64,000 nucleotides of DNA from Mustelus asterias (taxonomy: Eukaryota), in assembly GCF_964213995.1 (NCBI RefSeq), contig NW_027590185.1, forward strand, positions 310,001 to 374,000, written 5' to 3'. This document shows, piece by piece, positions 14,793-47,927 of the stretch. The position numbers and the translations under genes are program-made. Each line of letters opens with the position of its first letter. Position 1 is the first letter of the stretch. The notes under the pieces are model-generated. The model did no database searches. It worked only from the letters and a program-made list of their open reading frames with translations, and had not been told where the DNA came from.

Positions 14793-15467
14793 TCACTCAT
14801 GAACTTGTTGGTGTCTCAGCAGCAAGAATGAAACTCTGAATCCCTTCCCACACTGAGAGCAGGTAAACGGCCTCTCCCCAGTGTGAACCCGCTGGTGTCT
14901 CCACCAGCTGGATGACCGAGCAAATCCCTTCCCACACTGAGAGCAGGTGAACGGCCTCTCCCCAGTGTGAACTCGCTGGTGTGTCTGCAGATCGGATAAC
15001 TGAGTGAATCCCTTCCCACACTGAGAGCAGGTGAATGGTCTCTCCCCAGTGTGAACTCGCTGGTGTCTCCGCAGGTTGGATGACTCAGTAAATCCCACCC
15101 CACACACAGAGCAGATGAATGGCTTCTCCCCAATGTGACCTCGTTGGTGTCTCCGCAAGTTGGATGACTGAATGAATCCCTCCCCACACTGAGAGCAGGT
15201 GAATGGCCTCTCCCCAGTGTGAATGCGCTGGTGTGTCTGCAGAGTAGATAACCGAGTGAATCCCTTCCCACACTGAGAGCAGGTGAACGGCCTCTCCCCA
15301 GTGTGAACTCGCCGGTGTCTCTGCAGGCTGGATGACAGAGTGAATCCCTTCCCACACTGAGAGCAGATGAATGGCCTCTCCCCAGTGTGGCTGCGCCGAT
15401 GAGCATCCAGCAGAGATGGAGATCTGTATCTCTTCCCACAGTCCGCACATTTCCATGGTTTCTCCAT
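14793..15467 (-). CDS. C2H2 zinc-finger protein, 8 fingers
   Basis: ACCATGG start (MEKPWKC) at 15467 and an open array to TGA; upstream exons inferred at 17591-~17700 and 15988-16053, coding exon begins at 15818. Confidence 0.85.
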
Positions 15468-16944
15468 GGTGCAGGTGTCCTTGCCTCTGTCTTGTTTGGA
15501 CAATCAGTTAATGCCTCGTCCACCCACAAAACACGGGTACAGTCTCTCCCCACTGTGAATAGTGTGATATTTATTCAGGCGGTGTAACTTGTTAAAGCTC
15601 TTTAGTCAGTGCACTGGAACACTCTCACTCGAGTGTGGCAGTGTGTTGCTGCTTTTCCAGTCACACTGACATTTGAAATCTATTCAAATCGACAGACCGG
15701 ATAATCATTTCTCCTTCTAGATTCAAAGGCCAATGATATTCAGATCCCAAGGAATATGACTCTGTCGGATCTAGACATGACGGTTGAGATTTCGGCCTGT
15801 GATTCCTCTTTCAATATCCTGCAAAATGAGTTTGCAAAAGTCATCAGTGTCAGTACAGGATAGAAATTCAGAACAGACAATTCTAGTTTCTGTGGAACAT
15901 TCTTTCCTCTCTCATTCCCCAAAAAGCTGTGAATCTCCATCCCACACACTCTCCCTCCATTCTCACTCTGCTGTATCTAATATTCACCCTCCCAATTCTC
16001 CTGAAGGTGCTGATTGAGGCTGATTGACAGATCCAGGCTCACTGCTTCCTGTCCTGGACACAGAGACCATAACAAATAGGTGCTGCAGTCGGCTATTTGA
16101 CCCATCGAGCCTTTTAAACTATTCAATGAGATAATTCATTCATCTCCCTCAGCATCATTCTCCCCACACTAAACCCATATCCCTTGACATCTTCAATATT
16201 GAGAAACCAATCAATCTCTCCCCTGAAAATAGTTGATGACTGAGGCTTCACTGTCCTCAACGGTTGAGAATTCCAAAGCTTCACCACATACTTGAGTGAA
16301 GAAATCCCCCCACATCTTATCTTTTGCTCCATCTTCTTGTCTGTTCCCCATAACCATTAATGCCCCTGTCAGTCAAAAATCTGTCTAACTCATCCTGGAA
16401 TATATTCAATGACCTTCAGCCTCCACTGGTCCCTGTGGAAGACAAATCCAAAAGACTTACAACCCTCTGAGGGAAGAGATGTCTGGAAATATATAATGTA
16501 GCTACAGTTCCATATTACAAGTCTATGGATTCTATTTAAAAATGAAAGTGGATGGGCACTTGAAGGAAATAAACTTTCAGGAGAATGGGGATATAGAGTG
16601 GGAATGGGACTGGAACGTTATCCAGAGAGTCAGCATGGACTCGAGTTACCAAATGGACTCCTTCTGTGCTGTAATGACTATGGCTGGAAATGTATAAGAT
16701 AGCTACAGCATTATATTACAACACAAGAAATAATAATAAATGCACTTTTTTACAGAACCATAAATAACATATCTAATCGGTACCATATAACAACACTCGA
16801 CATATCTCTGTCTTATATTAATGTACTGTCCCCTTAAATGTCAGCCATCTCCTGGGGAAAGATGCCCTTTAATTGTGAACATTTAGCCAGACAAATAAAT
16901 GTCCTTTTAGCCAGACAAATAAATGTCTCAAGCTGAGGGAGCAA

Positions 16945-17430
16945 AGGATGTTCACCAGGCTGATTCAGGGAATCGCGGGACTGATGTAGGAGGAGAGAGT
17001 GACGAGGTTAGAATTGTTTTCGTTGGAGTTCAGATGAATGAGGGGGAGTCTCAAAGAGACTTATAAAATTCTAACAGGTCGAGACAGGATAGATGCAGGA
17101 AGGATGTTCCCGATGGTGGGGGAGTCCAGAACCAAGGGTCACAGTCTGAGGATTCAGGGTAGACCATTTAGGACAGAGGTGAGGAGACATTTCTTCACCC
17201 AAAGAGTGGTGAGCCTGTGGAATTTATTACCACAGGAAGTAGTTGGTGCTAAAACATTGAAGGTATTCAAGAGGTGGCTGGATATAGCAGTTGGGGCAAA
17301 TGGGATCAAAGGTTATGGGGAAAAAACAGGATTAGGCTACTGAGTTGGATGATCAGCCATGATCGTAATGAATGATGGAGCAGGCTCGAAGGGCCAAATG
17401 GCCTCCTCCTGCTCCTATCTTCTATGTTTC
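16945..17430 (+). mobile_element. CR1 LINE 3' fragment in intron 1 of the 14.8 kb ZNF gene
   Basis: ORF 17038-17343 with CR1 C-terminal motifs; ends in a TCTATGTTTCT tail. Confidence 0.8.
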
Positions 17431-17580
17431 TACATCAATGTCTTGAAGAGAGAGAGACCTGGGCCAACCTTTCCAGAGTCTGCAGCCTCCCTGGATTCAC
17501 TTCCTTTCCCTTCAGTTGCTGCAAGTCCCCAATTTCCCCCAGAATGAGAAAAGAAATGGAAAGAGGGAGAAAAGACAATG

Positions 17581-17930
17581 TTTTACTCACAGATGTGAGA
17601 GAAGGAGGAAGTTTGAGTCTGTCTGCAGCTTCATCTTCATTCACACAAAGCCCGCGCTCTGATTGGCTGGAGGACCAGAGTCCTTCCGGTCCTCCAATTC
17701 TTCCCATTGGCCAGAGCTGCGCAGTGAATCAAAAGTGCGCATGTGTGGGTTTTTAGGAGGAATGCGCATGTGCGGGTGTGGAGCGGGGTCCGGGACTGAG
17801 CCGGCGCACTGACCATTGTCTGTCCGGATCTTCCAGCCTTTTCCAATGGACAACAGCTCAGCGCGGCTGGAGGACAAAGTCCCGTCCACCCCCACGAGGG
17901 GCTCCGCCCCTCATTGTCTGTCTGCAGGGG
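17581..17930 (-). promoter_or_regulatory. CpG-island promoter and exon 1 of the 14.8 kb ZNF gene
   Basis: Reverse-complement homolog of 5640-5780: CCAAT, TGGAGGACC/GGTCCTCCA palindrome at 17668-17696, TGCGCATG motifs, donor GTGAGT. Confidence 0.75.
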
Positions 17931-17994
17931 ATTGCACAGTAAGAAGTTTAACAACACCAGGTTAAAGTCCAACAGGTTTATTTGGTAGCAAAAG

Positions 17995-18039
17995 CCACAC
18001 AAGCTTTCGGAGCTCCAAGCCCCTTCTTCAGGTGAGTGG
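17995..18039 (-). ncRNA. Minimal type I hammerhead ribozyme in PLE pseudo-LTR
   Basis: CAC-CUGAAGA-A-GGGGC-UUGGA-GCUCC-GAAA-GC-UU-GUG: conserved core, stem II, palindromic AGCU helix III. Confidence 0.7.
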
Positions 18040-18833
18040 GAATTCTGTTCACAAACAGAGTTTATAAAGACATAGACTCAATTTACAGAATAATGGTTGG
18101 AATGCGAATACTTACAACTAATCAAGTCTTTCAGAAACAAAACAATGGGAGTGGAGAGAGCATCAAGACAGGCTAAAAAGATGTGTATTGTCTCCAGACA
18201 AGACAGCCAGTGAAACTCTGCAGGTCCACGCAACTGTGGGAGTTACAAATAGTGTGACATGAAGCCAATATCCCGGTTGAGGCCGTCCTCGTGGGTGCGG
18301 AACTTGGCTATCAGTTTCTGCTCAGCGACTCTGCGCTGTCGTGTGTCGCGAAGGCCGCCTTGGAGAACGCTTACCCGAATATCAGAGGCCGAATGCCCGT
18401 GACCGCTGAAGTGCTCCCCAACAGGAAGAGAACACTCTTGCCTGGTGATTGTCGAGCGGTGTTCATTCATCCGTTGTCGCAGTGTCTGCATAGTTTCCCC
18501 AATGTACCATGCCTCGGGACATCCTTTCTTGCAGCGTATCAGGTAGACAACGTTGGCCGAGTTGCAAGAGTATGTACCGTGTACCTGGTGGATGGTGTTC
18601 TCACGTGAGATGATGGCATCTGTGTCGATGATCCGACACGTCTTGCAGAGGTTGCTGTGGCAGGGTTGTGTGGTGTCTTGGTCACTGTTCTCCTGAAGGC
18701 TGGGTAGTTTGCTGCGGACAATGGTCTGTTTGAGGTTGTGCGGTTGTTTGAAGGCAAGAAGTGGGGGTGTTGGGATGGCCTTGGCGAGATGTTCGTCTTC
18801 ATCAATGACATGTTGAAGGCTCCGGAGGAGCAA

Positions 18834-20360
18834 TCGGGCAATGGGACCCTGTGCGAGAACCTCTCCGGCTATGTCGAGGGCATCCTGAAACCCATTGTAC
18901 AAAGAACCCCCAGCTTTTGTCGCGACACGACGGACTTCCTACAGAAACTCGGCACACATGGAGCAGTTGAACCAGGAGCGCTCCTCGTCACAATGGATGT
19001 CTCGGCACTCTACACCAGCATCCCCCATGACGATGGCATTGCTGCAACGGCCTCAGTGCTCAGCGCCAACAACTGCCAGTTTCCAGATGCAACTTTACAT
19101 CTCATCCGCTTCATCCTGGACCACAATATCTTCACCTTCAACAACCAGTTCTTCATCCAGACACACGGAACAGCCATGGGGACCAAATTTGCACCTCAAT
19201 ATGCCAACATCTTCATGCACAGGTTCGAACAAGACTTCTTCACCGCACGGGACCTTCAACCGATGCTATACACTAGATACATCGATGACATTTTCTTCCT
19301 TTGGACTCATGGTGAACAATCACTGAAACAACTCTATGATGACATCAACAAGTTCCATCCCACCATCAGGCTCACCATAGACTACTCTCCAGAATCGGTT
19401 GCATTCTTGGACACGCGCATCTCCATTAAGGACGGTCACCTCAGCACCTCACTGTACCGCAAGCCCACGGATAACCTCACGATGCTCCGCTTCTCCAGCT
19501 TCCACACTAAACACGTTAAAGAAGCCATCCCCTACGGACAAGCCCTCCGTATACACAGGATCTGCTCGGATGAGGAGGATCGCAACAGACACCTCCAGAC
19601 GCTGAAAGGTGCCCTCATAAGAACAGGATATGGCGCTAGACTCATTGATCAACAGTTCCAACGCGCCACAGCGAAAAACCGCACCGACCTCCTCAGAAGA
19701 CAAACACGGGACACAGTGGACAGAGTACCCTTCGTTGTCCAGTACTTCCCCGGAGCGGAGAAGCTACGGCATCTCCTCCGGAGCCTTCAACATGTCATTG
19801 ATGAAGACAAACATCTCGCCAAGGCCATCCCCACACCCCCACTTCTTGCCTTCAAACAACCGCACAACCTCAAACAGACCATTGTCCGCAGCAAACTACC
19901 CAGCCTTCAGGAAAACAGGGACCACGACACCACACAACCCTGCCACAGCAACCTCTGCAAGACGTGTCGGATCATCGACACAGATGCCATCATCTCACGT
20001 GAGAACACCATCCACCAGGTACGCGGTACATACTCTTGCAACTCGGCCAACGTTGTCTACCTGATACGCTGCAAGAAAGGATGTCCCGAGGCATGGTACA
20101 TTGGGGAAACTATGCAGACGCTGCGACAACGGATGAATGAACACCGCTCGACAATCACCAGGCAAGATTGTTCTCTTCCTGTTGGGGAGCACTTCAGCGG
20201 TCACGGGCATTCGGCCTCTGATATTTGGGTAAGCGCTCTCCAAGGCGGCCTTCGCGACACACGACAGCGCAGAGTCGCTGAGCAGAAACTGATAGCCAAG
20301 TTCCGCACACACGCGGACGGCCTCAACCGGGATATTGGGTTCATGTCACACTATTTGTAA
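18834..20360 (+). CDS. PLE reverse transcriptase plus Cys-linker plus GIY-YIG endonuclease (5'-truncated, uninterrupted)
   Basis: DVSALYTSIP, QTHGTAMG, RYIDDIF, FLD RT motifs; PCHSNLCKTC linker; NVVYLIRC..WYIGET..RMNEH..E..LN endonuclease. Confidence 0.9.
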   Translation, partial: SGNGTLCENLSGYVEGILKPIVQRTPSFCRDTTDFLQKLGTHGAVEPGALLVTMDVSALYTSIPHDDGIAATASVLSANNCQFPDATLHLIRFILDHNIFTFNNQFFIQTHGTAMGTKFAPQYANIFMHRFEQDFFTARDLQPMLYTRYIDDIFFLWTHGEQSLKQLYDDINKFHPTIRLTIDYSPESVAFLDTRISIKDGHLSTSLYRKPTDNLTMLRFSSFHTKHVKEAIPYGQALRIHRICSDEEDRNRHLQTLKGALIRTGYGARLIDQQFQRATAKNRTDLLRRQTRDTVDRVPFVVQYFPGAEKLRHLLRSLQHVIDEDKHLAKAIPTPPLLAFKQPHNLKQTIVRSKLPSLQENRDHDTTQPCHSNLCKTCRIIDTDAIISRENTIHQVRGTYSCNSANVVYLIRCKKGCPEAWYIGETMQTLRQRMNEHRSTITRQDCSLPVGEHFSGHGHSASDIWVSALQGGLRDTRQRRVAEQKLIAKFRTHADGLNRDIGFMSHYL

Positions 20361-20564
20361 CTCCCACAGTTGCGTGGACCTGCAGAGTCTCACTGGCTGT
20401 CTTGTCTGGAGACAATACACATCTTTTTAGCCTGTCTTGATGCTCTCTCCACTCCCATTGTTTTGTTTCTTAAAGACTTGATTAGTTGTAAGTATTCGCA
20501 TTCCAACCATTATTCATGTAAATTGAGTCTGTGTCTTTATAAACTCTGTTTGTGAACAGAATTC

Positions 20565-20609
20565 CCACTCACCTGAAGAAGGGGCTTAGAGCTTCGAAAG
20601 CTTGTGTGG
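20565..20609 (+). ncRNA. Minimal type I hammerhead ribozyme in PLE pseudo-LTR
   Basis: CAC-CUGAAGA-A-GGGGC-UUAGA-GCUUC-GAAA-GC-UU-GUG. Confidence 0.7.
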
Positions 20610-21799
20610 CTTTTGCTACCAAATAAACCTGTTGGACTTTAACCTGGTGTTGTTAAACTTCTTACTGTGCAGAAGGAGGCCATTTGGCCCATCGAGTCTG
20701 CACCAACTCTGAGAGAGCATTTTATCAAAATTCATTGATTGTGACAAGGCAAGTTGACAAGGCTGTTTTTTTAAAAAAAGCTAATGGGGTCCTCAGTTTA
20801 TGAATGGAGATATGGAGTGCAAAGCAGGGAGTTATCCTGAATCTTTATAAATTACTGATTACCCAGCAGTGAGGAAAATTGATCAGGCACACCCTGTAAA
20901 CAAAAAGCAGGACAAATGCTACCCGGCCAATTACTGGTGCATTCAACCACCCTTGATCATCAGTAAAGTGATGAAAGGGGATATCTGCTGTCAAGTGGCA
21001 CTTGCTTCAGCAGAAACTACTCACTGATGGTCAGTTTGGGTTCTGCAAGGGTCACTGAGTTCCTGACCTGATTACAGCCTTGGTTCAAACATGGAGAAAA
21101 GAGCTGAACTGCCTCATAGAGGTGAAAGTACCTTATTGTATCAGCTGATGTTACTACTGGAAATGTCAGATTCCAGGATGGAAGATGGCTTGATAGATCC
21201 TCACTATTATTTTGTTCAGATAGCTGGATGAACAGTCAGAGATTTTTGGTAAACTTTTATTAAACAAGAAAACATTAAGTAGAATTAACTCTCCTTCACC
21301 CCAGCAATACCTTGACAGATATAAACAGACTTCTACCATTACACAAGTTACAAACTTTATCTTACACTCAAATATTCTCAGTAAGTTCACAGTCCATGCA
21401 AACTAATAGGTGAAATGTGGCCAAACACCCCACACTCTGAAACCAAGTGATAGATGTCACCGAATAGAACTTCTCTGGATTTCTCATCATTTCCCCAGAT
21501 GGTTGTCAAACTGTGAGCCAACTGATCTCACTGAAATTCTGTCTTCCACATGAGCATTTCCAATCTCACACTCTCGAAGATCACACTTTGGAATCTTCTC
21601 CGATACAATTCTTTCTATTGGATGCCTTCACCAAGGATCCACTGCCAGGATTTCAACTTCTTTCTGTATTCATCTGGCCTCGATCTCCATGTGCATTCAA
21701 GCTTCCAAACAAACTCTCAGGTACCCAACCACGCTAACAGAACACACTTGCTTCACAGGCTAGATTATGGTGTCAGCAACCTTTTGATCACCTCGGATC

Positions 21800-22495
21800 C
21801 CAAAAGGCCAATATACAGGAACAGCAAGTAATTCGGAAAGCTAATAGAATGTTATTGTTCATAGTGAGGAGAAATGATTACAAAAGTAGGGAGGTTATGC
21901 TCCAGTTGTACACACAATTGGTGAGACTACATCTGGAGTGTTGTGTACAGTATTGGTCTTGGTCTCCCTACTTAAGGAAAGATGTAAATGTATTGGAAGC
22001 AGTTTTGAGAAGGTTTTCTAGAGTAATACCAGGACTAGACAGGTTGTCTGATGAGGAAATGTTGCACAGGGTCAGCTTGTATCCACTAGAGTTTAGAAGA
22101 GTAAGAGGTGAATCGATCAAAACCTGAGGGTCTTGACAGGGTGGATGTGGAGAGAATGTTTTCTTTTAATGGAGAATCTAGAACTGGCAGGGGTGGAGCA
22201 TATGTTTACAAATAAGAGTTTGCTCATCTATGACCAAGATTACTAATGTTTTCTCTAAGAGGGCTGTGAGTCTCTCGAACTCTTCCTCAAAAAACAATGG
22301 AAGCATTGTCTTTGAATAAGTTAAAAGCACAGCCAAATAGATTCTTGATTAATGAGGGACTGAAAAGTTATTAGGAGTAGCCAGGATTGTGGGGTTGAGG
22401 CTAAAATCAGATCAGCCATGATCTTATTGAATTGTGGAGCAGGTTAGAGGGACTGAGTAGCCTACTCCGAGTTCATTTGTTCATATATTCTTATG
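21800..22495 (+). mobile_element. Degenerate CR1 3' fragment
   Basis: YKSREVMLQLY..LVRLHLECCVQYWS..YLRKD. Confidence 0.7.
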
Positions 22496-22849
22496 TCTCT
22501 TTCCCTGGAAATCTCTCTCTCTCTCTTGGGAATGTGCGTCACACAACTTTTCCATTCGCACTGATGAATGAAATCTTTTTGAACAGGGCATCAGTGTTCC
22601 TCTGACATTTGATCACTGATCATAGTCGTGTCCAAATGAACCAAGATATTTCTGACTGAAAATCCTTCCATTCTAATCCCTTGTAAATAAAAACATCTAT
22701 CAAAGCAATGAATGTAAGCACAGGATAGAAATTTGAAACTGATATTCTGGTTGTCACTTAACATTCTCCTCCCTTTCTGGAAAGCATTCTTTCTGATGTA
22801 TCACAACTTGATATTGCTCCTGCTCTGTCCAAGACCACAGGAAACTACA

Positions 22850-23230
22850 AAGGTCATGAATGACCCAATCCATCATGTAAACCAGCCTCCTATCCATTGA
22901 CTCTGTCTACATTTCCCACGGTCTTAGAAAAGCAGCCAGCATAATCAAGGACCCCACGCACCCTGGACATTCTTTCTTCCACCTTCTTCCATCGGGAAAA
23001 AGATATAAAGGTCTGAGGACATGTACAACCAAATCGAGAACAGCTTCTTCCCTGCGGCCATCAAACTTTTGAGTGGGACTACCTCACATTAATTTGATCT
23101 TTCTCTATATCCTAGCTATGACTGTAATACTACATTCTGCATCCTCCTCTTTGTCAGTAAAACGTACAAGAAACAGTACTTCTCACTGTCTACTAATACA
23201 TGTGACAATAATAAATCAAATTTCAAACTT
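22850..23230 (+). mobile_element. Rex1/Babar-like LINE 3' end
   Basis: Translates as IIKDPTHPGHSFFHLLPSGKRY...; AATAAATCAAAT tail. Confidence 0.6.
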
Positions 23231-23499
23231 TAAACATCTGCCTCCTCCCTATCAATTGTAAGCCTAATGCTTTTGACCATCCTCCTTATTTTTCCCCAGT
23301 TCTCCCCCAAGGAAGCTGCTGACTCTGGGGTTCAGTTTCACATTGAGCTATTCCACTCCCCAATATGTCACCCAGGTGTCTAAATTTTTCCACCTGAATT
23401 TTGCTAAGGTGGCGTCGCTATCAATTCGAGTGACTACCCAGATGTACATTATATCCGGATGGGGTCACTTCGCCTCCTTCCCATCCCATCCATCGCAGT

Positions 23500-23862
23500 C
23501 CCAGGTGTTTGGAGACTGGGCTCCGGCCGAGTAATGGCGGCCGCAGCTCCCACAATCCCCCGCGCTGGAGAAATCGCTCTATTCGCCGGGTGGGACTGCG
23601 CATGATTAACCCAGAGAAGTTCTGCGCATGTGCGGGGGATAGCGTTTCCCATTGGCCAATAACTGAGAGCGACCCGGGGTCAAAGTGTCTTCGACTCACT
23701 TCCGCTGCACCACTGTCTTCATGAGGGGTATTGACCAATGGAAGGAATTGGAGGACCGGAAGGATACTGGTCCTCCAGCCAATCAGAGTGCGGGCTTTGT
23801 GACAATGCAGATTGGATTTCAGACAGACTGAAATCTCCTCCTGTCGTCAACATCTGTCAGTA
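23500..23862 (+). promoter_or_regulatory. CpG-island promoter and exon 1 of the 25 kb ZNF gene
   Basis: AATGGCGGCC, CTCCCACAATCCCCCGCG (close to the Staf/ZNF143 consensus), TGCGCATG x2, CCAAT boxes, palindrome 23749-23777, donor GTCAGT at 23856. Confidence 0.8.
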
Positions 23863-25280: not shown

Positions 25281-26579
25281 ATGGAGAAACCGGGAAAAGA
25301 TGAGGTTTGTGGTAAGGAATTCCATATCCCGTCTGCACTGCAAACTCATCAACATATTCACACTGGGGAGAGACTGTTCCCCTGCTCCAAGTGTGGGGAA
25401 GGAGACTGCTCCCCATCTGCCCTGAAGATTCATCAATGCAGCCACACTGGGGAGAGGCCCTTCATCTGCTCTGAGTGTGGGAAGGGTTTTCTCCAGGCAG
25501 CCGACCTGTGGAATCACCAAGCAGTTCACAGTAGGGAGAGGCCGTACACCTGCTCTGAGTGTGGGAAGGGATTCACTCAGTTATCCCACCTGCTGACAAA
25601 CCAGCAAGTTCACACTGGGGAAAAACCGTTCAACTGCTCTGAGTGTGGGAAGCAATTCAATCATTCATCTGAACTTTTGAATCACCAACAAATCCACACC
25701 GAAGAGCGACAATTCACCTGCTCCGACTGTGGAAAGGGTTTCACTCAGTCATCTCACCTGCAGATACACCAGCGAGCCCACACTAAGGAGAGGCCTTTCA
25801 ACTGCTCTGAGTGTGGGAAGTGTTTTATTCAATTATCACACCTAGTGAATCACCAGGAAGTCCATAGGGGGGAGAGGCCGTTCCCCTGCTCCGAGTGTGG
25901 GAAGCGTTTTATTCAGTTATCACACCTAGTGACTCACCAGGGAGTCCACAGGAGGGAGAGGCCATTCCCCTGCTCCGAATGTGGGAAGCGTTTTATTCAG
26001 TTATCACACCTAGTGACACACAAAGGAACACACACAAGGGAGAGGCCATTCAGCTGCCCCGAATGTGGGAAACGTTTTATCCAATCGTCACACCTAATGT
26101 CACACCAGGGAGTTCACAGCAGGGAGAGGCCATTCGTCTGCTCCGAGTGTGGGAGGCGTTTTATTCAATCATCCCACCTAGTGTCGCATCAGGAGGTTCA
26201 CACCAGGGAGAGGCCATTTACCTGTTCCGAGTGTGGCAGGGGATTCATTCAGTTATCCGACCTGCAGAATCACCAGCAAGTTCACACCGGGGAGAGGCCA
26301 TTCACCTGCTCTGAGTGTGGGAAGGGATTCACTCGTTCAGCTAACCTGCAGGCACACCGACGTGTTCACACCAGGGAGAGACCATTCACCTGCTCTGAGT
26401 GTGGGAAAGGATTCGCTCTTTCGTCTTATCTGCAGAGTCACCAGCAAGTTCACACTGGAGAGAGGCCGTTTATCTGCTCTGAGTGTGGAAAGGGATTCAT
26501 TCAGTCATCCCACCTGCAGACACACCAACGAGTTCACAAGGATTCACAAAGGGATTCACTCAGTCATCCCACCTGCTGA
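25281..26579 (+). CDS. C2H2 zinc-finger protein, ~13 intact plus 2 degenerate fingers
   Basis: ACCATGG start at 25281 and an open array; coding exon acceptor ends at 24945. Confidence 0.85.
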   Translation: MEKPGKDEVCGKEFHIPSALQTHQHIHTGERLFPCSKCGEGDCSPSALKIHQCSHTGERPFICSECGKGFLQAADLWNHQAVHSRERPYTCSECGKGFTQLSHLLTNQQVHTGEKPFNCSECGKQFNHSSELLNHQQIHTEERQFTCSDCGKGFTQSSHLQIHQRAHTKERPFNCSECGKCFIQLSHLVNHQEVHRGERPFPCSECGKRFIQLSHLVTHQGVHRRERPFPCSECGKRFIQLSHLVTHKGTHTRERPFSCPECGKRFIQSSHLMSHQGVHSRERPFVCSECGRRFIQSSHLVSHQEVHTRERPFTCSECGRGFIQLSDLQNHQQVHTGERPFTCSECGKGFTRSANLQAHRRVHTRERPFTCSECGKGFALSSYLQSHQQVHTGERPFICSECGKGFIQSSHLQTHQRVHKDSQRDSLSHPTC

Positions 26580-26904: not shown

Positions 26905-27793
26905 CATGGACACCGAGCAAAACTGGAATCAATGGATATCAAGGGGCAAACTCTCTGCTGGCTGGACTTATACTGGCAATTAGGAAGATGGTTGTGGTTG
27001 TGGAGGGTCAGTCATCTCAGCTCCAGGACATCAATGCAGGGATCTCTCAGGGTCGTGTCCGACGCCCAACCATCTTCAGCTGCTTCATCAATAACCTTCC
27101 CTCCATCATAATATCAGAAGTGGGGATGTCCGCCAATGAATACACAATGTTCAGCACCATTTGTGACTCCTCAGATACTGAAGCAGTCCATGTCCAAATA
27201 CAACAATATCCAGGCTTGGGCTGACAAGTGGCAAGTAACATTCATGCCACATAAGTCCGAGGCAATGACCACCTTCAATAGAAGAGAATTTAACCATCAC
27301 CCCTTGACATTCAAGGGTATTACCATCACTGAATCCCCCTTCCATTATCAACATCCTGGGGGGTTACATTGACCAGAAACTCATAGATACTGTGGCTACC
27401 AGAGCAGGTCAGAGACTGGCAGCCCTGAGGAGAGTAACTCACTTTCTGACTCTCCCACCCAAAGCCCGTCCACCATCTCCAAGACACAAGTCAGGAATAT
27501 GATGGAATACTCTCCACTTGCCTGAATGAGTGCAGCTCCCAACAACACTCAAGAAGCTCAAAACCATCCAGGACAAAGCAGCCCCACTTGATCAACACAA
27601 CCACAAACATTCACTCCCTCTACCACCGACGGACAATAGCAACAGTGTGTACCATCTACAAAATGCACTGCAGGAACTCACCAAGACTCCTTCGGCAGCA
27701 TCTTACAGACCCAGGAACATTACCATCTAGAAGGACAAGAGCAGCAGATACATGAGAATGTCACCACCTGTAAGTTCCTCTCTAAGTCACTCA
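26905..27793 (+). mobile_element. Degenerate LINE (CR1/L2 group) RT and 3' region, continuing at 29075-29270
   Basis: PTIFSCFINNLP, IQAWADKWQVTF motifs; tail resumes after the LTR insertion. Confidence 0.65.
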
Positions 27794-29074
27794 TGTCAGG
27801 AAAACAGAGGTAGTTTTAAGTGATCTATGTTTCTATTGTTAAATATTAGAAATAAAGTATAGATTTAAGTAAGTTTGATTTAGTGTTTCTGTAGGAAGAG
27901 GAGAACTTTGGTTGGATTCTTGTTGAACAAAGGTGTTTGCATGTGCGGGGGATGGGTTTCAATTCAAATTGTATTCCTGTTGTGCTGAGAGAGTTTATGG
28001 CGTGAAAAATAAACATGAAGTTGGAGAAATAATGCATTGTTGCATAGCAACCAGCAGCACCTTTAGGGTGAGAAGGTTTTTTGAGTGTAGTTTTAGTTGA
28101 ATTTATAGCAGTTGGGGTGAGGAAACGAGAGGGTGAGCAGCTCTCAGCTCTACTAGAAGCAGGAAAGCCATACAATGGAGTAATGTGTCCGAAAGCAAGT
28201 TCCAGAGGAACTACAGGACAGTTCGTTTGAGAAACCCGGGAATGGAAGGGAAGTGTCAGGAATATTTAAGTAAAAAAGGAACAGCATTGTCTTTGGAACA
28301 GGATACTATTCATGGAAGTTAAACTCAGACCTGGGAAGAAAAGAACTGATGAGGTTGGTGACAGAGAAGCCACATATCTGAAATAGTGGGAAGGTTTGAT
28401 GTCCTTAAATCCAGTTTTTGAAGCAATTGTATTCTGTTAGGGACTGATGATCTGAGTTTATGTAGAATTTTGGAAGCATGTTGCAATTCAAGGCAAAGGA
28501 ATTCTGAGAGTTAAAAACCTAGAGGCAGCTTCTTGCTAAAAGAGTGGAGAGGAAGCCTTGTTTGAAAGGATAATTGAAAGACCTGGAAGTGGATCTTTGT
28601 TGAAAGCAACGGAGAGAAACTTGGTTTGGAAGGAGATATTAACACGTGTCTTTCTGAGAGCGGTGTTTGGAAACACTCGTGACAATCATCTGGAGGGAAA
28701 TTTGAGGAGAAATCCACAGAGGATTGATTGAGTTGCATCTGCCACTTGGTTTCAGAGTGGGGGTTGTCTGATCACAGCTAACCTGTGGGTTTAAAGGAAC
28801 CATGTGTTTACTGAGAACATTATAGCATAAGGAATTTTAAATCTATGTTATCCTTGAAATCTGGATACATTTGTGAAGGTAAGTGTGAGTCAAGGAGTAT
28901 TTTGTTATCGTCAAACTCTTCGTGTTTAATAAATATTTTATTAAAAGCTAATTGGCAGTCCTGTGATTCTGTTCCTTTATGTTTTCTCCAAAAAGTAAAA
29001 GTTGCGGTCTTTTGAGCCAGTGTTCCATCCGGGAATCATCCTGTCCAATTATAACATCAACTGGGATCGTAACA
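27794..29074. mobile_element. Solo LTR (~1.28 kb)
   Basis: TG...CA termini with a 4-bp TSD CTCA (27790-27793 / 29075-29078); interrupts a LINE tail; AATAAA near the right end. Confidence 0.75.
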
Positions 29075-30879
29075 CTCACCATCTTGACTTCAAAATATAT
29101 TGCTGTTCCTTCGCTGTCACTGGGTCAAAATCCTGGAGCTTCCTCCCAAACAAGTGTGGGTGTCCCTACACCACAGGGAATGCTGTGGTTCTAGAAGGCA
29201 GCTCAACACCACCTTCTCAAGGCCATTTAGAAATGGACAATAAATGCTGACCTAGCCAGTGAGGCCCACCTTTTATTATTCAGGGCAGACTGTGGGCTTT
29301 GACCTCTGTAAACGAATAAAAAATAAGGTAATACCTGTTTTTAGCCCATTGAATTGGTTTTCAATGACAGCATTGTCTTCTTCCTTGTTCTTATGTCCTG
29401 GGCCTATTACACAGATTTACTTGAAGGAATAGAGCCAGCCTGACTCCACTGTGTTATCTCTGACACTGTTATCATTCCCCAAGCTGCTACAGACAAGTTC
29501 ATTAGCTCAAACAAACACATCTTTCTCACAGTGTGAGGCCAGCTTCCTGCACAATTTAATTCATTTTGCAGACATTGCTAATTCCAGCAAGGCTGCGACT
29601 TGATTACATTGACCAGCATGCTTTGCACATTGAACCCACAATGCAGTTCAGTGCAGTTCTTCAGACATGCTCAGTCTGGGTTCTTCTATCACCCTCGATA
29701 TTCCATGTTACCACCATGAGAGACTCCACACACAGCGTTACACCACAACCCGTGAACGCTAATTAATATAAAATAAATAAAGTTACAAACTGACTGCACA
29801 TTAAAAAGGTCCATAATACATTGGTTTCCAACAGAGCCATTGTAATAAAAGCCAATGAAGTTATGCTGAAGCTTTATGAAGCACTGTTTAAACCACAATG
29901 GGAATATTGTGTTCATATCCAGACAGCACGCTTTAGGAAGGATGGGATGGTCCTTGAAAAGGTGTGGAGGTTCACCAGAATGGTTCCAGCAATGAAGGAT
30001 TTTAACTCCAAGGTCAGGTTCGAGAAGTTGGAGTTATTCTCCCTGGAATGAAGGAGGCTAAGGGAAGATCTGATAGAGGTGAGCACTATTATGACAGGTT
30101 TAGATCAAGTGGATACAGAAATTGGCCAGGATTGACAGAGACTGCTGGAGGCAAGGCTATTGGTTAATATAACTTTTTATTGCACCTTCTTCTAAATATG
30201 TACAGCACAAGGCTCAGCAAACAACCATCTCTCAGCAAACTCTTATCACCTGATCTTACATCACTGGGTAGAATATTTACAAATTTAACATTAACCCTTG
30301 ACACTGCACCAAGTCTTCAGTCAGCCTCCTAACATCCCCTCAGTGCCAGTTGTCTGATTTATCAATTGATGTTTCTGAGATTCACCTTGGGACACTCTCC
30401 TACATTGAAGGTCTGATGTAAACAAAAGTTATTTTTAAAATCTCATTGTAACAGACTGAGGAAGTCAGGATTAAAACAATATCTGGGTAAATGGAGTTAG
30501 GTCACAGATCAGCCATGACTTCAGTGAATGAGAGAACAGGCTTGAGGGATAAATGACCTCCTCCTGTTCCTGGTAAACTTGGACTCAGACACCAGCTGAT
30601 GAATGGAAAGTGATGGGAGACCTGGGGAGAAGAGACTTCATCAGAAACCAGCACTGGAGCAGAGTTAGAGCGTGGGAGAATCCTGGGGAGAAACTACACA
30701 GGAACTGGAGTAGGTTGTTCAGCTCTTCCAGTCTGCTCTGTCATTCAGTTAGACTCTGGCTGATCAATCAGATTATCAAGATTTATTTGATTCTATTCTG
30801 TAGATTAAGCTGCAGCTCAGTTTTATGGGAAATTAACATCAGCAGAAACAAACTCCAACTATCACAATGGGAACATGTG

Positions 30880-32140
30880 AATTAGGAGCAGGAGAAGGCC
30901 ACTCGGCCCCTCGAGCCTGCTCCACTATTCAATAGGATCCTGGCTGATGTGATTATAGCTTCAACTCCAGTTTCCTTCTTACCCCTCACACCCTTTGACT
31001 CTCGTTAATCAAGAATCTATTAAATTCAGACTTCAGAATATTCAGTGAGCCAGCCTCCACCACTCTCTGTGGAAGAGAATTCCACACTGTAACAACCCTC
31101 TGAGAGAAAAGGTTTCTCCTCATTTCAGTCTTAAATGGGAGACCCCTTATTTTTAAACTGCCTCTAGTTCTCCTCTCTCTACAATCAACATCCACTTTGT
31201 CAAGTCCCCTCTGAATTTTATATGTTTCAATCAGATCCTCTCTCATTCCTCTAAACCCCAATAGATACAGGCCGAACATGTCCAACTTTTCATCATATGA
31301 CAACCCCCTCATCCCAGGAATCAGTCAAGTAAACCTTCTCCGAACTACTTCTCACACAAGTCCTCTCTGAAGTAAGGAGACCAAAACTGTACACAGTACT
31401 CTTGATGTGGTCTCACCAATACCCTGAACAAATGCAGCAAAACATCCCTGCAATAAACAACAATTCATTTACCTTTCTAATCATTTGCTGTGTCCACACA
31501 CTAACGTTTCCTGATTACAGTACCAGGACACCCAGATCCCTCTGTACCTGCAATCGCTCTCTTTAAATAATCAACTGCTTTTCCATCCTTCCTGTCCAAA
31601 TGGACAAGTTCACATTATCCAAAAATCTTGTTCCAGCTACCAACTTTTTACCCACTCACTCACTATGTCGCTTTGCAGGCTTGTTATGGTCATTCACATC
31701 TCACTTTCCGACCTACCCTTTGTGTTATCAGCAAATTTTGATCCTGTCATCCACGTCATGAAAATAGTTTGTCAATAGTTGAGGCCCCAGCACTGATCCC
31801 TGTGGCACTCCACAAGCTACATCTTGCCATCCCAAAAGTTACTCCTTTCTCCCTCCTCTCTGTTTCCCATTAGCTAATCAATCCTCTATCCATGCTAATA
31901 CAAAGAACCGATGTGGATGGGATGCTAATATGTTATGCCTTATGCTACGAATTCTTATTTTGTGTGGTAAACTTTGATGTGTCAAATGCCTGCTGGAAAT
32001 CTAAATACACCACATCCACAGGTTCCACTTTATCCACATTGCTTGTAACTTCCTCAAAGAAATCCAATAAATCAATTAAAGGTGATTTCCCTTGCACAAA
32101 ACCATGTTGACTCTGCCTGATTGTACAGAGATTATCTCTG
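30880..32140 (-). mobile_element. Degenerate CR1 LINE
   Basis: QHGFVQGKS.L..LLDFFEEVT..VD..VDVVYLDFQQAFD and C-terminal motifs. Confidence 0.75.
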
Positions 32141-32183
32141 TGTTCCACCCTCCCAGCCTCCTTAATAACAGAATGAACATGAT

Positions 32184-33494
32184 TCAGTCCTGCATGGGGT
32201 TAGCAGCAACAGCAGAATCCAATCCCTGCAGTGACTTGTGAACTTGCTGGTGTCTCAGCAGATTGGCTGACCGAGCAAATCTCTTCCCACATACGGAGCA
32301 GGTGAACGATCTCTCTCCTGTGTGAACCTGCTGGTGTCTCAGCAGGTGGGATGACTGAGTGAACCTTTTCCCACACATGGAGCAGGTGAATGATCTCTCC
32401 CCAGTGTGAATTTGCTGGTGTCTCAGCAGGTCCTTCGTGCTTTTAAAACTTTTCTCATAGTCAGAACACTTAAAAGGTCTCTGATCAGTGTGGACCAGTT
32501 GATGTGCAATGAGCTGGGGTGGCTGAGTGAATCGTTTCCCACATGTGGAGCAAGCGAAGGGTTTCTCCCCAGTGTGAATTCGCTCGTGTATCAGAAGGTG
32601 GGGCGAATCAGTGAATCCCTTCCCACACACACAGCAAATAAATGTCTTCTCCCCGGTGTGAACTCGCTGGTGTCTCAGACAGTGGGATGAATGGGTGAAT
32701 CCCATCCCACACACCGAGCAGGTGAACGGTTTCTCCCCAGTGTGAACTCGCTGGTGTGTCACCAAATCCTGTTTACTTTTAAAGCTCTTCTCACAGTCAG
32801 AACACTGAAATGGTCTCTTATCAGAGTGAACTCGCTGGTGTGTTTGCAGCTGGGATAAACGTCCGAATCTCCTCTCACACACGGAGCAGGTGAATGGCTT
32901 CTCCCCAGTGTGAGTGCGCTGATGGACTTGTAAATCATTTTTACTTTTAAACCTCTTCTCACAGTCAGAACATTGAAATGGTCTCCGATCAGTGTGAACA
33001 AGTTGGTGTGTCAGAAGGTGGGATGACTGAGTGAATCCCTTCCCACACACTGAGCAGGTGAACGGTCTCACCGCCATGTGAGTGCGCTGGTGTCTCAGGA
33101 GGTCCTTTGTGCTTTTAAAGCTTTTCTCACAATCAGAACATTGAAACGGTCTCTGATCGGAGTGAACTTGCCGGTGAATCAGGAGGCTTGATAAAGCATG
33201 ACATCCCCTCCCACATTCGAGGCAGGTGAACGGCCTCTCACCAGTGTGAACACGCCGGTGTGTATAGAGGCTGGATGAGTAAGCAAATCCTTTCCCACAC
33301 TCAGAGCAGGTGAACGGCCTCTCTCCAGTGTGAATGCGACGATGAATATCCAATTCGGACGGGTAATTGAATCCCCTCCCACAGTCCCCACATTTCAATG
33401 GTTTCTCTGTGCTGCCGGTGTCCTCGTGTGACTCCAGGTTGGATGATGAGTTGAAGCCTCGTTTACACAGAATATGAGTCGGGTCACTACTCAC
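32184..33494 (-). CDS. C2H2 zinc-finger array, 13 intact fingers plus 1 broken (C->Y); family ATG absent
   Basis: Open frame from GTG; the MEKP position reads TEKP (ACA); the frame reads through the usual stop position into SLQGLDSAVAANPMQD. Confidence 0.75.
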   Translation of the reverse strand: MSSDPTHILCKRGFNSSSNLESHEDTGSTEKPLKCGDCGRGFNYPSELDIHRRIHTGERPFTCSECGKGFAYSSSLYTHRRVHTGERPFTCLECGRGCHALSSLLIHRQVHSDQRPFQCSDCEKSFKSTKDLLRHQRTHMAVRPFTCSVCGKGFTQSSHLLTHQLVHTDRRPFQCSDCEKRFKSKNDLQVHQRTHTGEKPFTCSVCERRFGRLSQLQTHQRVHSDKRPFQCSDCEKSFKSKQDLVTHQRVHTGEKPFTCSVCGMGFTHSSHCLRHQRVHTGEKTFICCVCGKGFTDSPHLLIHERIHTGEKPFACSTCGKRFTQPPQLIAHQLVHTDQRPFKCSDYEKSFKSTKDLLRHQQIHTGERSFTCSMCGKRFTQSSHLLRHQQVHTGERSFTCSVCGKRFARSANLLRHQQVHKSLQGLDSAVAANPMQD

Positions 33495-33989
33495 TGAGAA
33501 TGATGTGATTATTTTTCAGACTTGTTCAACCACTTTCCACATTCAGCACATTGGAAACCCTCAGGTGTGTGTGTGTCTCGGTGCTTTTTCAGTCACACTG
33601 ATGTTTGAAATCTTTGCCCGCAGACAGAATAAACATTTCTCCTTCTGGAGACAAAGGCTGATGATATTCAGTTTCTGATTAATCAAATCACTGAAACAGA
33701 TCTTGATGTGAAGTTTGGTTTGAGTTTCATATCTGTAAATCTTGCTTCATAATACTCTGCAAAAACAGTTTACAAATACAGGGTACCATCACTGTCAGTC
33801 CAGGATAGAAATTCTGAAATTTCTCTGCAACATATTTTCCTCTCTTGTTCCCCGTCCCACACACTCTCCCACCTCCCCTGGGCTGAAATCCAAACCCATC
33901 TCAACATCTCCACCATTTCTTTCCTCCACTCCATTTTCTCCCTCCCTCTCCTCTGTCTGGGTTCAGTTATTGATGTGGAAATCTCACTA

Positions 33990-34235
33990 ACTGTCCTGGC
34001 TGGAGACAATACACATCTCTTTAACCTGTGCTCAACTCTCCCTCCACTCACATTGTCTGTACCTTTAAGAATTGATTACCTGTAAAGACTCGCATTCCGA
34101 CCATTATCTTGTAAATTGAGTTTGTGAACAAAACTCCCACTTACCTGACAAAGGAGCAGCGCTTCGAAAGCTGGTGGCTTTTGCTACCAAATAAACCTGT
34201 TGGACTTTAACCTGGTGTTGTTAAACTTCTTACTG
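33990..34235 (+). mobile_element. PLE pseudo-LTR fragment with degenerate hammerhead
   Basis: Homologous to 20395-20666; core reads CTGACAA and the site reads CUG, so probably inactive. Confidence 0.75.
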
Positions 34236-34579
34236 GGTTTAGTTCTCCAGCTCCTGTCTGCAGACTGACAATAAAACCAATGGGTCTGGGGCCTCCAGCG
34301 GGTGTTTGTGAATCCTCCCCGCCCACCTCCCAGGGTTTCCTTCCTTCCCAGAGATCAGAGTCCTCATTGATTTGAGGCCAAAGTGTAACCTCTTATTTAT
34401 TGTCCCCCTCCCCCATCCTCTGATGTGAACCATCCTCCAGTGGCTGAGCCAGGATGGGGCCGTTAACCTGGGCCTGTTCCCGGGAGGGAGGGAGGGAGAA
34501 GCCCCGCAGCTGCAAACCAGGGAGCTGACAATGATTCTGAAGGGTTTGCGGATCCACAAAGTGTTTCCAAATCCTCCCA

Positions 34580-34930
34580 GCCACCGCCTAACGCTGACTC
34601 CGCTTCTCCGGGACAAACAAGCGCCAAGGACAGCAATGACACTGCGCATGCTCCACATCACAATGCCCAGGGGCTGATTGACAGCAGCTCCGGACCAATA
34701 GGAAGAGGGGGCGGGGCTGGAGGACCGAGTGGGAGCGGCTGGTCCTCCAACCAATCGGAATGAATGAGGGGCGGGACCTGAAGCATGCGCAGTGCGGGTG
34801 AACCAGATAAACCTGTTGGACTTTAACCTGGTGTTGTTTGACTTGTTGCTGTGTTTACCCCAGTCCAACGCCGGCATCTCCACATCAGTGCGGGTAATGG
34901 CGACGGCCGGTTTTAGTTTGGAAGCGAGAT
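34580..34930. promoter_or_regulatory. CpG-island, probably bidirectional, promoter between divergent ZNF genes
   Basis: TGCGCATG and GCATGCGCA (NRF1-like), two CCAAT, two GGGCGG boxes, TGGAGGACC-n14-GGTCCTCCA, AATGGCG. Confidence 0.7.
34800..34885 (+). mobile_element. 86-bp PLE 3' end insertion with 10-bp TSD
   Basis: CAGTGCGGGT at 34790-34799 and 34886-34895 flank ATAAACCTGTTGGACTTTAACCTGG...CCAGTCCAACGCCGGCATCTCCACAT. Confidence 0.8.
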
Positions 34931-35464
34931 CAATGAAGGGAAAGGAATGACTGGCAATTGGGAGGTTTTAAAAGTGTGATATCAAGAGTCCAGGGGCAGT
35001 ATATTCCTGTTAAGATGCAGGGAAAGAATGGTAAATTTAGGGATCTCTGGCAGACAAGGGACATTGAGGCTCTGGTCAGGTAAAAGAAGGAAGCATACAT
35101 TGGGTTTAGGCAATCGGGGACAAATGAATCACTCTGACTATAAAAAGTGTAAGAAAATACTGAAGAGGGAAATCAGGAGGACAAAAAGAGGGTATGATAT
35201 GGATCTGGCAGGTAAGATTAAAGAAAATTCCAAGATGTTCTATAGCTATATTAAGAGGAAAAGGGTGGCTAGAGAGAGAATAGATCCCCTGAAAAATCAG
35301 TATGGCCATCTGCGTGTGGAGCCACAGGAGATGGGTGAGATTTTTAATGAATACTTCTCTGTGTTTACTGCGGAGAGCACCATGGGTGCGAAAGAAATAA
35401 GGGAAACAAGTGGTGATGTGTTGGGCACACGCATGTTACTTGGGAGGAGGTATCTGCAGCCTTA

Positions 35465-35651
35465 TAAAAGCAAATTACTGCGGATGCTGGAATCTGAAAC
35501 CAAGAGAGAAAATGCTGGAAAATCTCAGCAGGTCTGGCAGCATCTGTAAGGAGAGAAAAGAGCTGATGTTTTTTGTCTAGATGACCCTTTGTCAAAGCTC
35601 TGAAACATCAGTTCTTTTCTCTCCATACAGATGCTGCCAGACCTGCTGAGA
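35465..35651. mobile_element. Hairpin (inverted-repeat) non-autonomous element with decayed hammerhead, second family
   Basis: TCTCAGCAGGTCTGGCAGCATCTGTA...TACAGATGCTGCCAGACCTGCTGAGA arms; same family as 59840-60025. Confidence 0.7.
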
Positions 35652-36137
35652 ATGGGGAGAGAGTGTGTGGGATGGAGATTTACAGCTTTTGGGGAATGAG
35701 AGAGGAAAGAATGTTCCATAGAAATTGTCTGTTCTGAATTTCTATCCTGTACTGACACTGATGACTTTTGTAAACTCATTTTACAGGATATTGAAAGAGG
35801 AATCACAGGCTGAAATCTCAAACGTCACGTCTCGATCTGACAGAGTCTTATTCCTTGGGACCTCAATATCATCGGACTTTGAACCTAGAAGGAGAAATGA
35901 TTGTCCAGTCTGTCGATTTGAAAAGATTTGAAATGTCAGTGTGAGTGAAAAAGCATCAACACACTACCACACTCGAGTGAGAGTGTTCCAATGCACTGAC
36001 TAAAGAGCTTTAACCAGTTACACAGTCTGAATCAATATCACACCATTCACAGCGGGTAGAAACTGTAATCTTGTTCTGTGTGTGGACGAAGTTTCAACTA
36101 ATTGTCCACCCAAGAGAGAGGTAAGGACACCTGCACC

Positions 36138-36896
36138 ATGGAGAAACCATGGAAATGTGTGGACTGTGGGAAGGGATGCAGAACCCCATCTCAGCTGGAA
36201 GCTCATCGGCGCAACCACACTGGGGAGAGGCCGTTCATCTGCTCTCAGTGTGGGGAGGGATTCACTCGGTCAACCAACCTGCAGTCACACCAGCGAGTTC
36301 ACACTGGGGAGAGACCATTCACCTGCTCTCAGTGTGGGCAGGGATTCATTCAGTTCTGCAGCCTGCAGACACACCAGCGAGTTCACACTGGAGAGAGGCC
36401 ATTCACCTGCTCTCAGTGTGGGAAGGGATTCACTCGGTCATCCCACCTGCAGAGACACCAGCGAGTTCACACTGGGGAGAGTCCATTCACCTGCTCTCAG
36501 TGTGGGAAGGGATTCACTCAGCCATCCCACCTGCAGAGACACCAACGCATTCACACTGGGGAGAGGCCGTTCACCTGCTCTCAGTGTGGGAAGGGATTCA
36601 CTCAGTCATCCAACCTGCGGACACACGAACGAGTTCACACTGGGGAGAGACCGTTCACCTGCTCTCAGTGTGGGCAAGAATTCACTCAGTTATGCACCCT
36701 GCAGACACACCAGCTAGTTCACACTGGGGAGAGGCCATTCACCTGTTCTCAGTGTGGGAAGGGATTCACTCGGTCATCCACCCTGCGGACGCACCAGCGA
36801 GTTCACACTGGGGAGAGTCCGTTCACCTGCTCTCAGTGTGGGAAGGGTTTCAGCGTTTCATCCCAGCTGCTGAGACATCAACAGGTTCACGAGTGA
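36138..36896 (+). CDS. C2H2 zinc-finger protein, 9 fingers; close paralog of the 14.8 kb gene
   Basis: ACCATGG start at 36138; coding exon acceptor ends at 35786; UTRs align with 14570-15970 reverse complement. Confidence 0.85.
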
Positions 36897-47890: not shown

Positions 47891-47927
47891 CCATAAGCTT
47901 TCGGAGCACAGCTCCTTCGTCAGATGG
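47891..47927 (-). ncRNA. Intact-looking minimal hammerhead ribozyme in a PLE fragment (~47833-47955)
   Basis: CCAU-CUGACGA-A-GGAGC-UGU-GCUCC-GAAA-GC-UU-AUGG: perfect stems I and II, complete core. Confidence 0.75.

What the first reader, a model, noticed from the sequence alone, without database searches (positions are those of the whole stretch)
14793..36896. Paralog pair with conserved backbone and UTRs but almost fully replaced DNA-contact residues
Genes at 14793-15467(-) and 36138-36896(+) share intron, leader and 3' UTR and the same 84-bp backbone (ACTGGGGAGAGGCCATTCACCTGCTCTCAGTGTGGGAAGGGATTC). Their helix -1/2/3/6 residues differ: SSLA,LSSR,RSTT,QSNR,ESNR,QSDT,RSSR,VFLR versus TSQA,RTNS,QCST,RSHR,QSHR,QSNT,QCTT,RSTT,VSQR. 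No fingerprint is shared, and finger number differs (8 vs 9). This is the homogenised-minisatellite and hypervariable-contact pattern known from PRDM9 and young KZFPs.
Basis: partly seen in the sequence, partly recalled or inferred. Interest (0 to 1): 0.7.

Follow-up and report, generated by a model that had tools for sequence, protein, structure and literature searches.

The report
Fast-rewritten shark zinc-finger gene family
These two genes are ordinary members of a very large family of bare zinc-finger genes, likely from a shark, whose predicted DNA-reading residues change two to five times faster than silent sites while whole fingers are gained and lost, a pattern already known from mammal and fish zinc-finger families and likely, though untested, an arms race with mobile DNA.

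Summary
Both genes, their fingerprints and 8 vs 9 fingers are real. Three claims fail: RSTT is shared (A finger 3, B finger 8); about half of contact residues match; the genes are not a sister pair (48 of 55 fetched intact relatives are closer to B than A is). They belong to a finger-only C2H2 clade with about 1,650-2,200 candidate hits in a 3.7-Gb genome whose best protein matches are sharks and rays. The selection claim holds: helix positions -1, +3, +6 show dN/dS about 2 (codon ML, CpG-aware) and 5x the leader's change rate in finger 1; a neutral simulation reached the observed ratio in 2 of 156 runs; +2 is conserved. The PRDM9 comparison fails: fingers are no more alike within a gene (0.866) than between genes (0.862), arrays are 2-7x more diverse than human or mouse PRDM9, and no SET/KRAB frame precedes the ATG. 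Close copies differ mainly by whole-finger gain/loss; arrays turn over between 97%-identical flanks. This matches published poly-ZNF birth-death evolution; the variant is a clade-wide finger pool without an effector domain. The scan noted this family before on other DNA. Targets are untested.

The parts
14793..15467 (-). Gene A coding sequence: 224 aa, 8 C2H2 fingers, no other domain; ATG in ACCATGG context at a linker position (T-M-E-K-P)
15468..15818 (-). Gene A 5' leader in the last exon (inferred): decayed zinc-finger coding sequence with stops in all frames
   Evidence: relatives L082, L084, L087 keep recognisable fingers here
15819..15965 (-). 3' end of intron shared with gene B; acceptor AG at 15820-15819 (inferred)
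   Evidence: contigs of guessed-RNA runs stop at 15818-15821 (weak hint)
15988..16053 (-). 66-bp exon-like block (AG/GT bounded), conserved in three other window genes, absent from B (inferred exon)
17640..17800 (-). Putative promoter of A (CCAAT box, GCGCATG motifs), homologous to the promoter of the gene at 25 kb
   Evidence: inferred from motifs
14548..14792 (-). Gene A sequence after the stop, shared with B (93%)
36138..36896 (+). Gene B coding sequence: 252 aa, 9 C2H2 fingers, no other domain
35787..36137 (+). Gene B 5' leader in the last exon (inferred), decayed fingers
35647..35786 (+). 3' end of intron shared with A; acceptor AG at 35785-35786 (inferred); repeats lie upstream
36897..37136 (+). 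Gene B sequence after the stop, shared with A; 97-100% identical in 40 best genome hits
34630..34800 (+). Putative promoter between B and the divergent ZNF gene at 32238-33392 (two CCAAT, two GC boxes, GCGCATGC motifs)
   Evidence: inferred from motifs

Best explanation
A and B are two distant members of a very large, recently amplified clade of finger-only C2H2 genes, likely from a shark, in which helix residues -1, +3 and +6 change faster than silent sites and whole fingers are gained and lost, which likely generates new DNA-binding specificities, probably against mobile or repeated DNA. Shown: copies arise in duplicated blocks of 18-44 kb; near-identical copies keep their fingerprints and differ by whole fingers; more distant copies carry different arrays drawn from one clade-wide pool of 84-bp units with a small residue vocabulary (Q/R at -1, S/N/H/D at +3, T/R at +6); zinc ligands and core residues are under strong purifying selection. 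Inferred: unequal crossover and conversion within and between paralogs replace internal fingers; diversifying selection keeps the contact variants common; the proteins start at the linker Met and have no effector domain, so they would act by occupying sites or by recruiting a partner through the fingers. Untested: expression, binding sites, repression.
For: Family size: 1651, 1859 and 2216 first-look candidates for three 176-236-bp probes, top 40 at 96-100% (not copy numbers). 55 of 59 fetched relatives intact, 6-26 fingers. Duplicated blocks: window 20667-64000 recurs in C122 at 95-99.96%, window 1-17934 in C218 at 91-97%. B's fingerprint set occurs in 11 intact copies with 6-10 fingers; A's in 5 copies with one contact change. 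Codon ML on 250 unique internal fingers: backbone 0.40, contacts 1.73 (LRT p=4e-8); -1/+3/+6 = 2.3/2.0/2.1, Cys/His/Phe/Leu core 0.01-0.12; with a CpG term 1.9/2.0/2.1. Tree-free pairwise over 17 genes: dN(-1/3/6) 0.73 vs dS 0.19; finger 1 0.80 vs 0.11, leader 0.11. Finger 1 on leader trees, 24 genes: 7.0 changes per contact site vs 1.37 held-out leader, 1.96 four-fold, 0.43 backbone, p=1.6e-5. Neutral-helix simulations reached the observed ratio 2.83 in 0 of 55, 1 of 55 and 1 of 46 retained runs. Array turnover: B vs L014 leader 13/478 but array synonymous 18/166, p=9e-5. In-frame stop 6-12 codons before the ATG in 57 of 57 intact genes. Highest-identity named hits among the 120 listed are Mustelus 76%, Hemitrygon 71%, Carcharodon 67%, Amblyraja 64%.
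Against: Among close copies grouped by array, contacts change at only 0.66-0.76 of the synonymous rate (21/1208 vs 93/3558, p=0.11; biased low by the grouping), and rare variants at -1/3/6 are not in excess (4.6 vs 6.8 per site): the excess lies in a few common alleles (5 in 6.7 sites vs 3 in 24.2, p=0.015). Non-contact helix positions +1 and +5 are also very variable, and -1 Q/R is a CpG change. The last finger shows only weak excess (1.5, interval 1.0-2.4). Tree-based p-values are inflated by conversion (PMC5519329 says so); the simulation gives p of about 0.01-0.02. The four-gamete pattern (91% of 171 site pairs) cannot separate recombination from parallel change, and a PHI-like test in the leader gave p=0.056. 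39 and 20 of the relatives were chosen by 3' similarity to B and A; only 8 came from unselected stretches. Some copies may be alleles. No binding or target data.
Confidence: 0.68

Rival explanations
1. PRDM9-like minisatellite genes: each array is homogenised within the gene by conversion while contacts hypermutate, possibly to place recombination.
For: 84-bp units with 84-88% TRF matches; contact excess; the share-of-diversity statistic (0.32-0.42) touches the bottom of the range of complete PRDM9s, 0.33-1.0, and is above the older window genes (0.25-0.27).
Against: Within-gene identity equals between-gene identity, nearest finger in the same gene for 18 of 155; array DNA diversity 0.15-0.24 vs 0.03-0.08 in mouse and human PRDM9; no SET, SSXRD or KRAB by Pfam in the ORFs and stops just upstream of the ATG; hundreds to thousands of copies.
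Confidence: 0.05
2. Neutral shuffling of a founder array: the ancestor already had fingers that differed at contacts; duplication and unequal crossover reshuffle them, with relaxed rather than positive selection on the helix and CpG decay adding Q/R flips.
For: Excess lies in common alleles, rare variants are not in excess; close copies show 0.66-0.76; +1 and +5 vary as well; pool dS (0.19) is older than leader divergence (0.11).
Against: Finger 1 is positionally fixed and still changes 5x faster at contacts than the leader; CpG-aware model keeps +3 and +6 at 2.0-2.1; neutral birth-death-conversion simulations reach the ratio in 2 of 156 runs; the excess rises from 1-3% leader divergence onward. 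My simulation started from one unit, not from a diverse founder array, so this rival is not fully excluded for internal fingers.
Confidence: 0.2
3. Self-amplifying gene-like repeats: the clade spreads as a macro-satellite and most proteins have little function, selection acting only on fold stability.
For: Whole blocks of several genes recur in many contigs; very high copy number; no effector domain; 4 of 59 broken.
Against: 55 of 59 frames intact, zinc ligands at dN/dS 0.01-0.07; purine at -3 of the ATG in 57 of 57; excess of amino-acid change specifically at base-contact sites.
Confidence: 0.07

Closest known systems
Lineage-specific poly-ZF / KRAB-ZNF expansions (Emerson and Thomas 2009, PMC2604467; passages read)
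   Same: Clustered recent paralogs, positive selection concentrated at helix -1, 3, 6, finger gain and loss among paralogs (only 1 of their 24 expansions kept finger number); shown there for mammals, frog, chicken, zebrafish, fugu.
   Different: No KRAB, SCAN or BTB frame; sharks were not in their Table 2; here internal fingers lack positional homology between subfamilies and behave as one clade-wide pool, whereas they aligned paralogs finger by finger.
FiNZ-ZNF genes of cyprinid fish (Wells et al. 2023, PMC10547256; passages, section 4, supplement rows read)
   Same: Hundreds of young clustered ZNF genes in a non-tetrapod, positive selection at base-contacting residues in some clades; their supplement lists 703-3586 ZNF ORFs for seven cartilaginous-fish assemblies, so the size of shark expansions is on record.
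   Different: FiNZ genes have an upstream coding exon; these have an in-frame stop 6-12 codons before the ATG. TE repression was tested in zebrafish, not here. The main text does not mention sharks.
PRDM9 zinc-finger minisatellite (Baker et al. 2017, PMC5519329; section 10 part 1, section 25, supplement rows read)
   Same: 84-bp units, diversity concentrated in the recognition helix, variable finger number.
   Different: No KRAB-SSXRD-SET; no gene-specific homogenisation; arrays 2-7x more diverse than human or mouse PRDM9; lower share of diversity at DNA sites; multi-copy family rather than one gene.

Membership tests
Tandem (poly) C2H2 ZNF genes | Four or more tandem C-X2-C-X12-H-X3-H fingers with 7-residue TGEKP-type linkers | tested here: met
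   8 and 9 fingers; PF00096 and PF13465
Tandem (poly) C2H2 ZNF genes | Lineage-specific clustered expansion with finger gain and loss | tested here: met
Tandem (poly) C2H2 ZNF genes | dN/dS above 1 at helix -1, +3, +6 | tested here: met
   weaker among the closest copies
KRAB-ZNF (KZFP) | N-terminal KRAB domain in frame with the fingers | tested here: not met
   No KRAB in either ORF; in-frame stop 6-12 codons upstream in 57 of 57. The genome-wide KRAB search found nothing but its control did not ring, so it says nothing about the genome.
KRAB-ZNF (KZFP) | TRIM28-dependent repression of transposons | not testable with these tools
   needs binding and repression assays
PRDM9 | KRAB-SSXRD-PR/SET domains ahead of the array | tested here: not met
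   SSXRD genome search uninformative (control silent)
PRDM9 | Gene-specific homogenisation of fingers (very low within-array DNA diversity) | tested here: not met
   within 0.866 vs between 0.862; diversity 0.15-0.24 vs 0.034-0.079
PRDM9 | [quoted passage not shown] | tested here: inconclusive
   0.32-0.33 with finger 1, 0.38 without; complete PRDM9s span 0.33-1.0
FiNZ-ZNF | 28-aa acidic FiNZ domain on an upstream coding exon | tested here: not met
   No open frame leads into the ATG; no FiNZ profile was searched
Tandem (poly) C2H2 ZNF genes | Expressed protein that binds DNA sequence-specifically | not testable with these tools
   no run on record as RNA was listed; no binding data

The most novel reading that the evidence does not exclude
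Sharks run a combinatorial library of effector-less zinc-finger proteins: more than a thousand genes share one 84-bp finger unit that is exchanged across genes, with a balanced vocabulary of contact residues recombined below the level of the finger, so that new DNA readers are assembled by shuffling rather than by point mutation, and they block transposons without KRAB.
Probability: 0.15. Interest if true: 0.75.

Novelty: new variant of a known kind. Interest (0 to 1): 0.4.

Why it matters
Cartilaginous fishes lack the KRAB-ZNF system of tetrapods, yet carry ZNF expansions as large (supplement of PMC10547256). Quantified contact-site selection in a finger-only clade extends the transposon arms-race signature to this lineage and makes a clear question testable: how do fingers without an effector domain act, and on what. 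The clade also offers natural series of 95-100% identical genes that differ by single fingers. The two genes as a pair are not special.

Tried and rejected
Expression: no RNA holder listed; contigs of runs only guessed to be RNA cover the leader, and several stop at the predicted acceptors (35785-35786; 15818-15821), but no clean exon-exon joint was shown, so this is a weak hint only. Genome-wide KRAB and SSXRD searches rang nowhere, controls included: uninformative. Position-by-position comparison of A and B was rejected because internal fingers have no one-to-one homologs. The bootstrap intervals resample genes, not sites, and overstate certainty; the simulation is the fairer test (runs with pS at or below 0.10 were dropped: 5, 5 and 14 of 60). 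The triplet tests (p=0.004-0.02) were first read as leader/array chimeras and then set aside, because private contact changes in one gene give the same pattern; only the synonymous contrast is used. Four-gamete counts and a PHI-like test (p=0.056) do not prove sub-finger recombination. One search dropped 13 genes through a start-codon bug, corrected. Literature searches: (33 papers, 25 listed; 5; 30, 15 listed; 2) listed no paper on selection in shark ZNF clusters by title or abstract start; searches returned none. Subscription journals are not covered; files 3-5 of the PMC10547256 supplement were not searched and could hold shark analyses.
Full report
Observation. A six-frame scan finds eight or more zinc-finger arrays in the first 44 kb of the window. 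Pfam finds only zinc-finger families above cut-off patterns of note, no KRAB, SCAN, BTB or SET. The shared sequence runs from 15965/35647 to 14548/37136: about 145 bp of intron, a 350-bp leader and 240 bp after the stop, at 90% and 93% identity. Three statements are wrong. RSTT is present in both genes. With one internal B finger dropped, 12-16 of 32 contact residues match. And the two are not sisters.

Family context. Searches of the own genome (3.68 Gb) with the two 3' regions and the B start region gave 1651, 1859 and 2216 first-look candidates, the best 40 at 96-100% (these are not copy numbers). I fetched all 39 non-self hits for B and 20 of 39 for A; 55 of 59 are intact, with 6-26 fingers. 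Of the 55, 48 are closer to B and 31 closer to A in the leader than A and B are to each other. B's fingerprint set recurs in 11 intact copies with 6-10 fingers; A's in 5 copies of 8 fingers with one contact change, R to Q. The window itself is made of duplicated blocks: 20667-64000 recurs in C122 and 1-17934 in C218. In 400 kb of C71 taken without selection there were 22 arrays, unevenly spread. The highest identities among 120 listed protein hits are to sharks and rays, so the source is likely a shark (inference).

Gene anatomy. All 57 intact genes have an in-frame stop 6 or 12 codons before an ATG with a purine at -3. The ATG sits where a linker would be (T-M-E-K-P for T-G-E-K-P), and the leader translates into pieces of decayed fingers that relatives L082, L084 and L087 still show as recognisable fingers. 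The protein is therefore predicted to be fingers only. Splice sites and promoters are inferred from sequence; sequencing runs gave only a weak hint.

Homogenisation. First and last fingers are position-specific types; internal fingers are all about equally alike. Over 17 representative genes, within-gene identity is 0.866 and between-gene 0.862, and the nearest finger lies in the same gene for 18 of 155. Distances between subfamilies have mean 11.6 and variance 11.8, as for a star-like pool. On the statistic of Baker et al. (PMC5519329), A and B score 0.32 and 0.33 (0.38 without finger 1) with DNA diversity 0.21-0.24 (0.15-0.17), against 0.69/0.079 for human and 0.91/0.034 for mouse PRDM9; older genes in the window score 0.25-0.27 with diversity 0.29-0.37. 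So the clade is more uniform than old ZNFs, but the uniformity is clade-wide, not per gene.

Selection. A codon model on 250 unique internal fingers gave dN/dS 0.40 for the backbone and 1.73 for the four contact sites (p=4e-8); by site 2.3, 0.63, 2.0, 2.1 for -1, +2, +3, +6 and 0.01-0.12 for the structural core. A CpG term left 1.9, 0.65, 2.0, 2.1. Because conversion breaks the tree assumption, I added tree-free tests. Pairwise between 17 genes: dN(-1/3/6) 0.73 vs dS 0.19 in internal fingers, 0.80 vs 0.11 in finger 1, 0.31 vs 0.20 in the last finger; leader distance 0.11. On trees built from two thirds of the leader, finger-1 contact sites need 7.0 changes per site against 1.37 for held-out leader sites, 1.96 for four-fold sites and 0.43 for the backbone (24 genes, p=1.6e-5). 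Simulated pools with a neutral helix, birth-death, conversion and CpG decay reached the observed ratio of 2.83 in 2 of 156 retained runs. For A against B, five alignable fingers give 10 of 29 contact sites changed against 14 of 119 synonymous (p=0.011) and 42 of 345 leader sites (p=0.003).

Results against a simple arms race. Among close copies grouped by array, contacts change at 0.66 of the synonymous rate (21/1208 vs 93/3558, p=0.11), though the grouping biases this low; binned by leader distance alone the ratio is 0.3-1.3 below 1%, 1.8-2.8 at 1-3% and 2.6-4.3 beyond. Rare variants at contacts are not in excess; the excess is in a few common alleles: 80 distinct fingerprints among 155 fingers, built mostly from Q/R, S/N/H/D and T/R. 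Positions +1 and +5 are nearly as variable.

Mechanism. Shown: block duplication, whole-finger gain and loss, a hybrid finger at a deletion junction (L001 finger 5), a terminal-type finger in an internal position (L015), and array turnover between near-identical flanks (B vs L014: leader 13/478, array synonymous 18/166, p=9e-5). Inferred: unequal crossover and conversion within and between paralogs, with diversifying selection keeping contact variants common. Whether variants recombine below finger level or arise in parallel is not resolved. That the targets are transposons rests on analogy with KRAB-ZNF and FiNZ-ZNF genes only.

Comparison with known systems. Emerson and Thomas (PMC2604467, passages read) report selection at -1, 3, 6 and finger gain/loss in poly-ZF expansions of mammals, frog, chicken and two fishes. 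Wells et al. (PMC10547256) report the same for zebrafish FiNZ-ZNFs and list 703-3586 ZNF ORFs for cartilaginous fishes in a supplement. The whale shark paper (PMC8455134, passages) notes loss of KRAB-bearing families in cartilaginous fishes. A shark and ray genome preprint (10.1101/2025.06.08.657570, passages) has no mention of zinc fingers. The genes are members of the tandem C2H2 class, not of KRAB-ZNF, FiNZ-ZNF or PRDM9. Earlier notes of this scan describe the same finger-only family on other DNA; they are leads, not support.

Verdict. A real but known kind of evolution, overstated for this pair. The variant worth recording is a finger-only clade whose internal fingers form one pool across genes. 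Interest 0.4.

Noticed in passing
window 17933-20671: Penelope-like retroelement: 550-codon open frame with an RT match (PF00078, 2e-9) and a GIY-YIG-like C-terminus (recalled motif), with an 899-bp inverted copy of its 3' part at 97.9%. It sits exactly at the junction of two duplicated blocks whose copies (C218, C122) continue into different sequence there.
   Followed up: partly
window 20667-64000 vs G000:C122:837136-880455: Near-identical copy (95-99.96%), with window 60029-62287 inverted and displaced; recent duplication or uncollapsed allele.
   Followed up: partly
window 15468-15818 and 35787-36137: The 5' leader is made of up to three decayed zinc fingers, and the start Met occupies the Gly position of a former linker.
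   Followed up: partly
window 2221-2451: Three successive fingers with the same DSRR fingerprint in the gene at 709-2535, a recent internal triplication; the C71 copy has two, the C218 copy none.
   Followed up: no
window 25443-26538: 13-finger gene with a run of QSHx fingers on RRERP-type linkers, a gene-specific internal expansion unlike A and B.
   Followed up: no
window 34900-35650: B and most of its relatives lack the 66-bp exon-like block; repeat fragments lie there instead, shared at 94-97% by several subfamilies with different arrays.
   Followed up: partly
window 45750-60500: About 15 kb without zinc fingers and with high CpG observed/expected at low GC; not examined.
   Followed up: no
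L019, L023, L025, L031, L033: A 23-26-finger subfamily with an 8-residue linker (TGEKPPFT) and flanks 96-97% identical to B.
   Followed up: no
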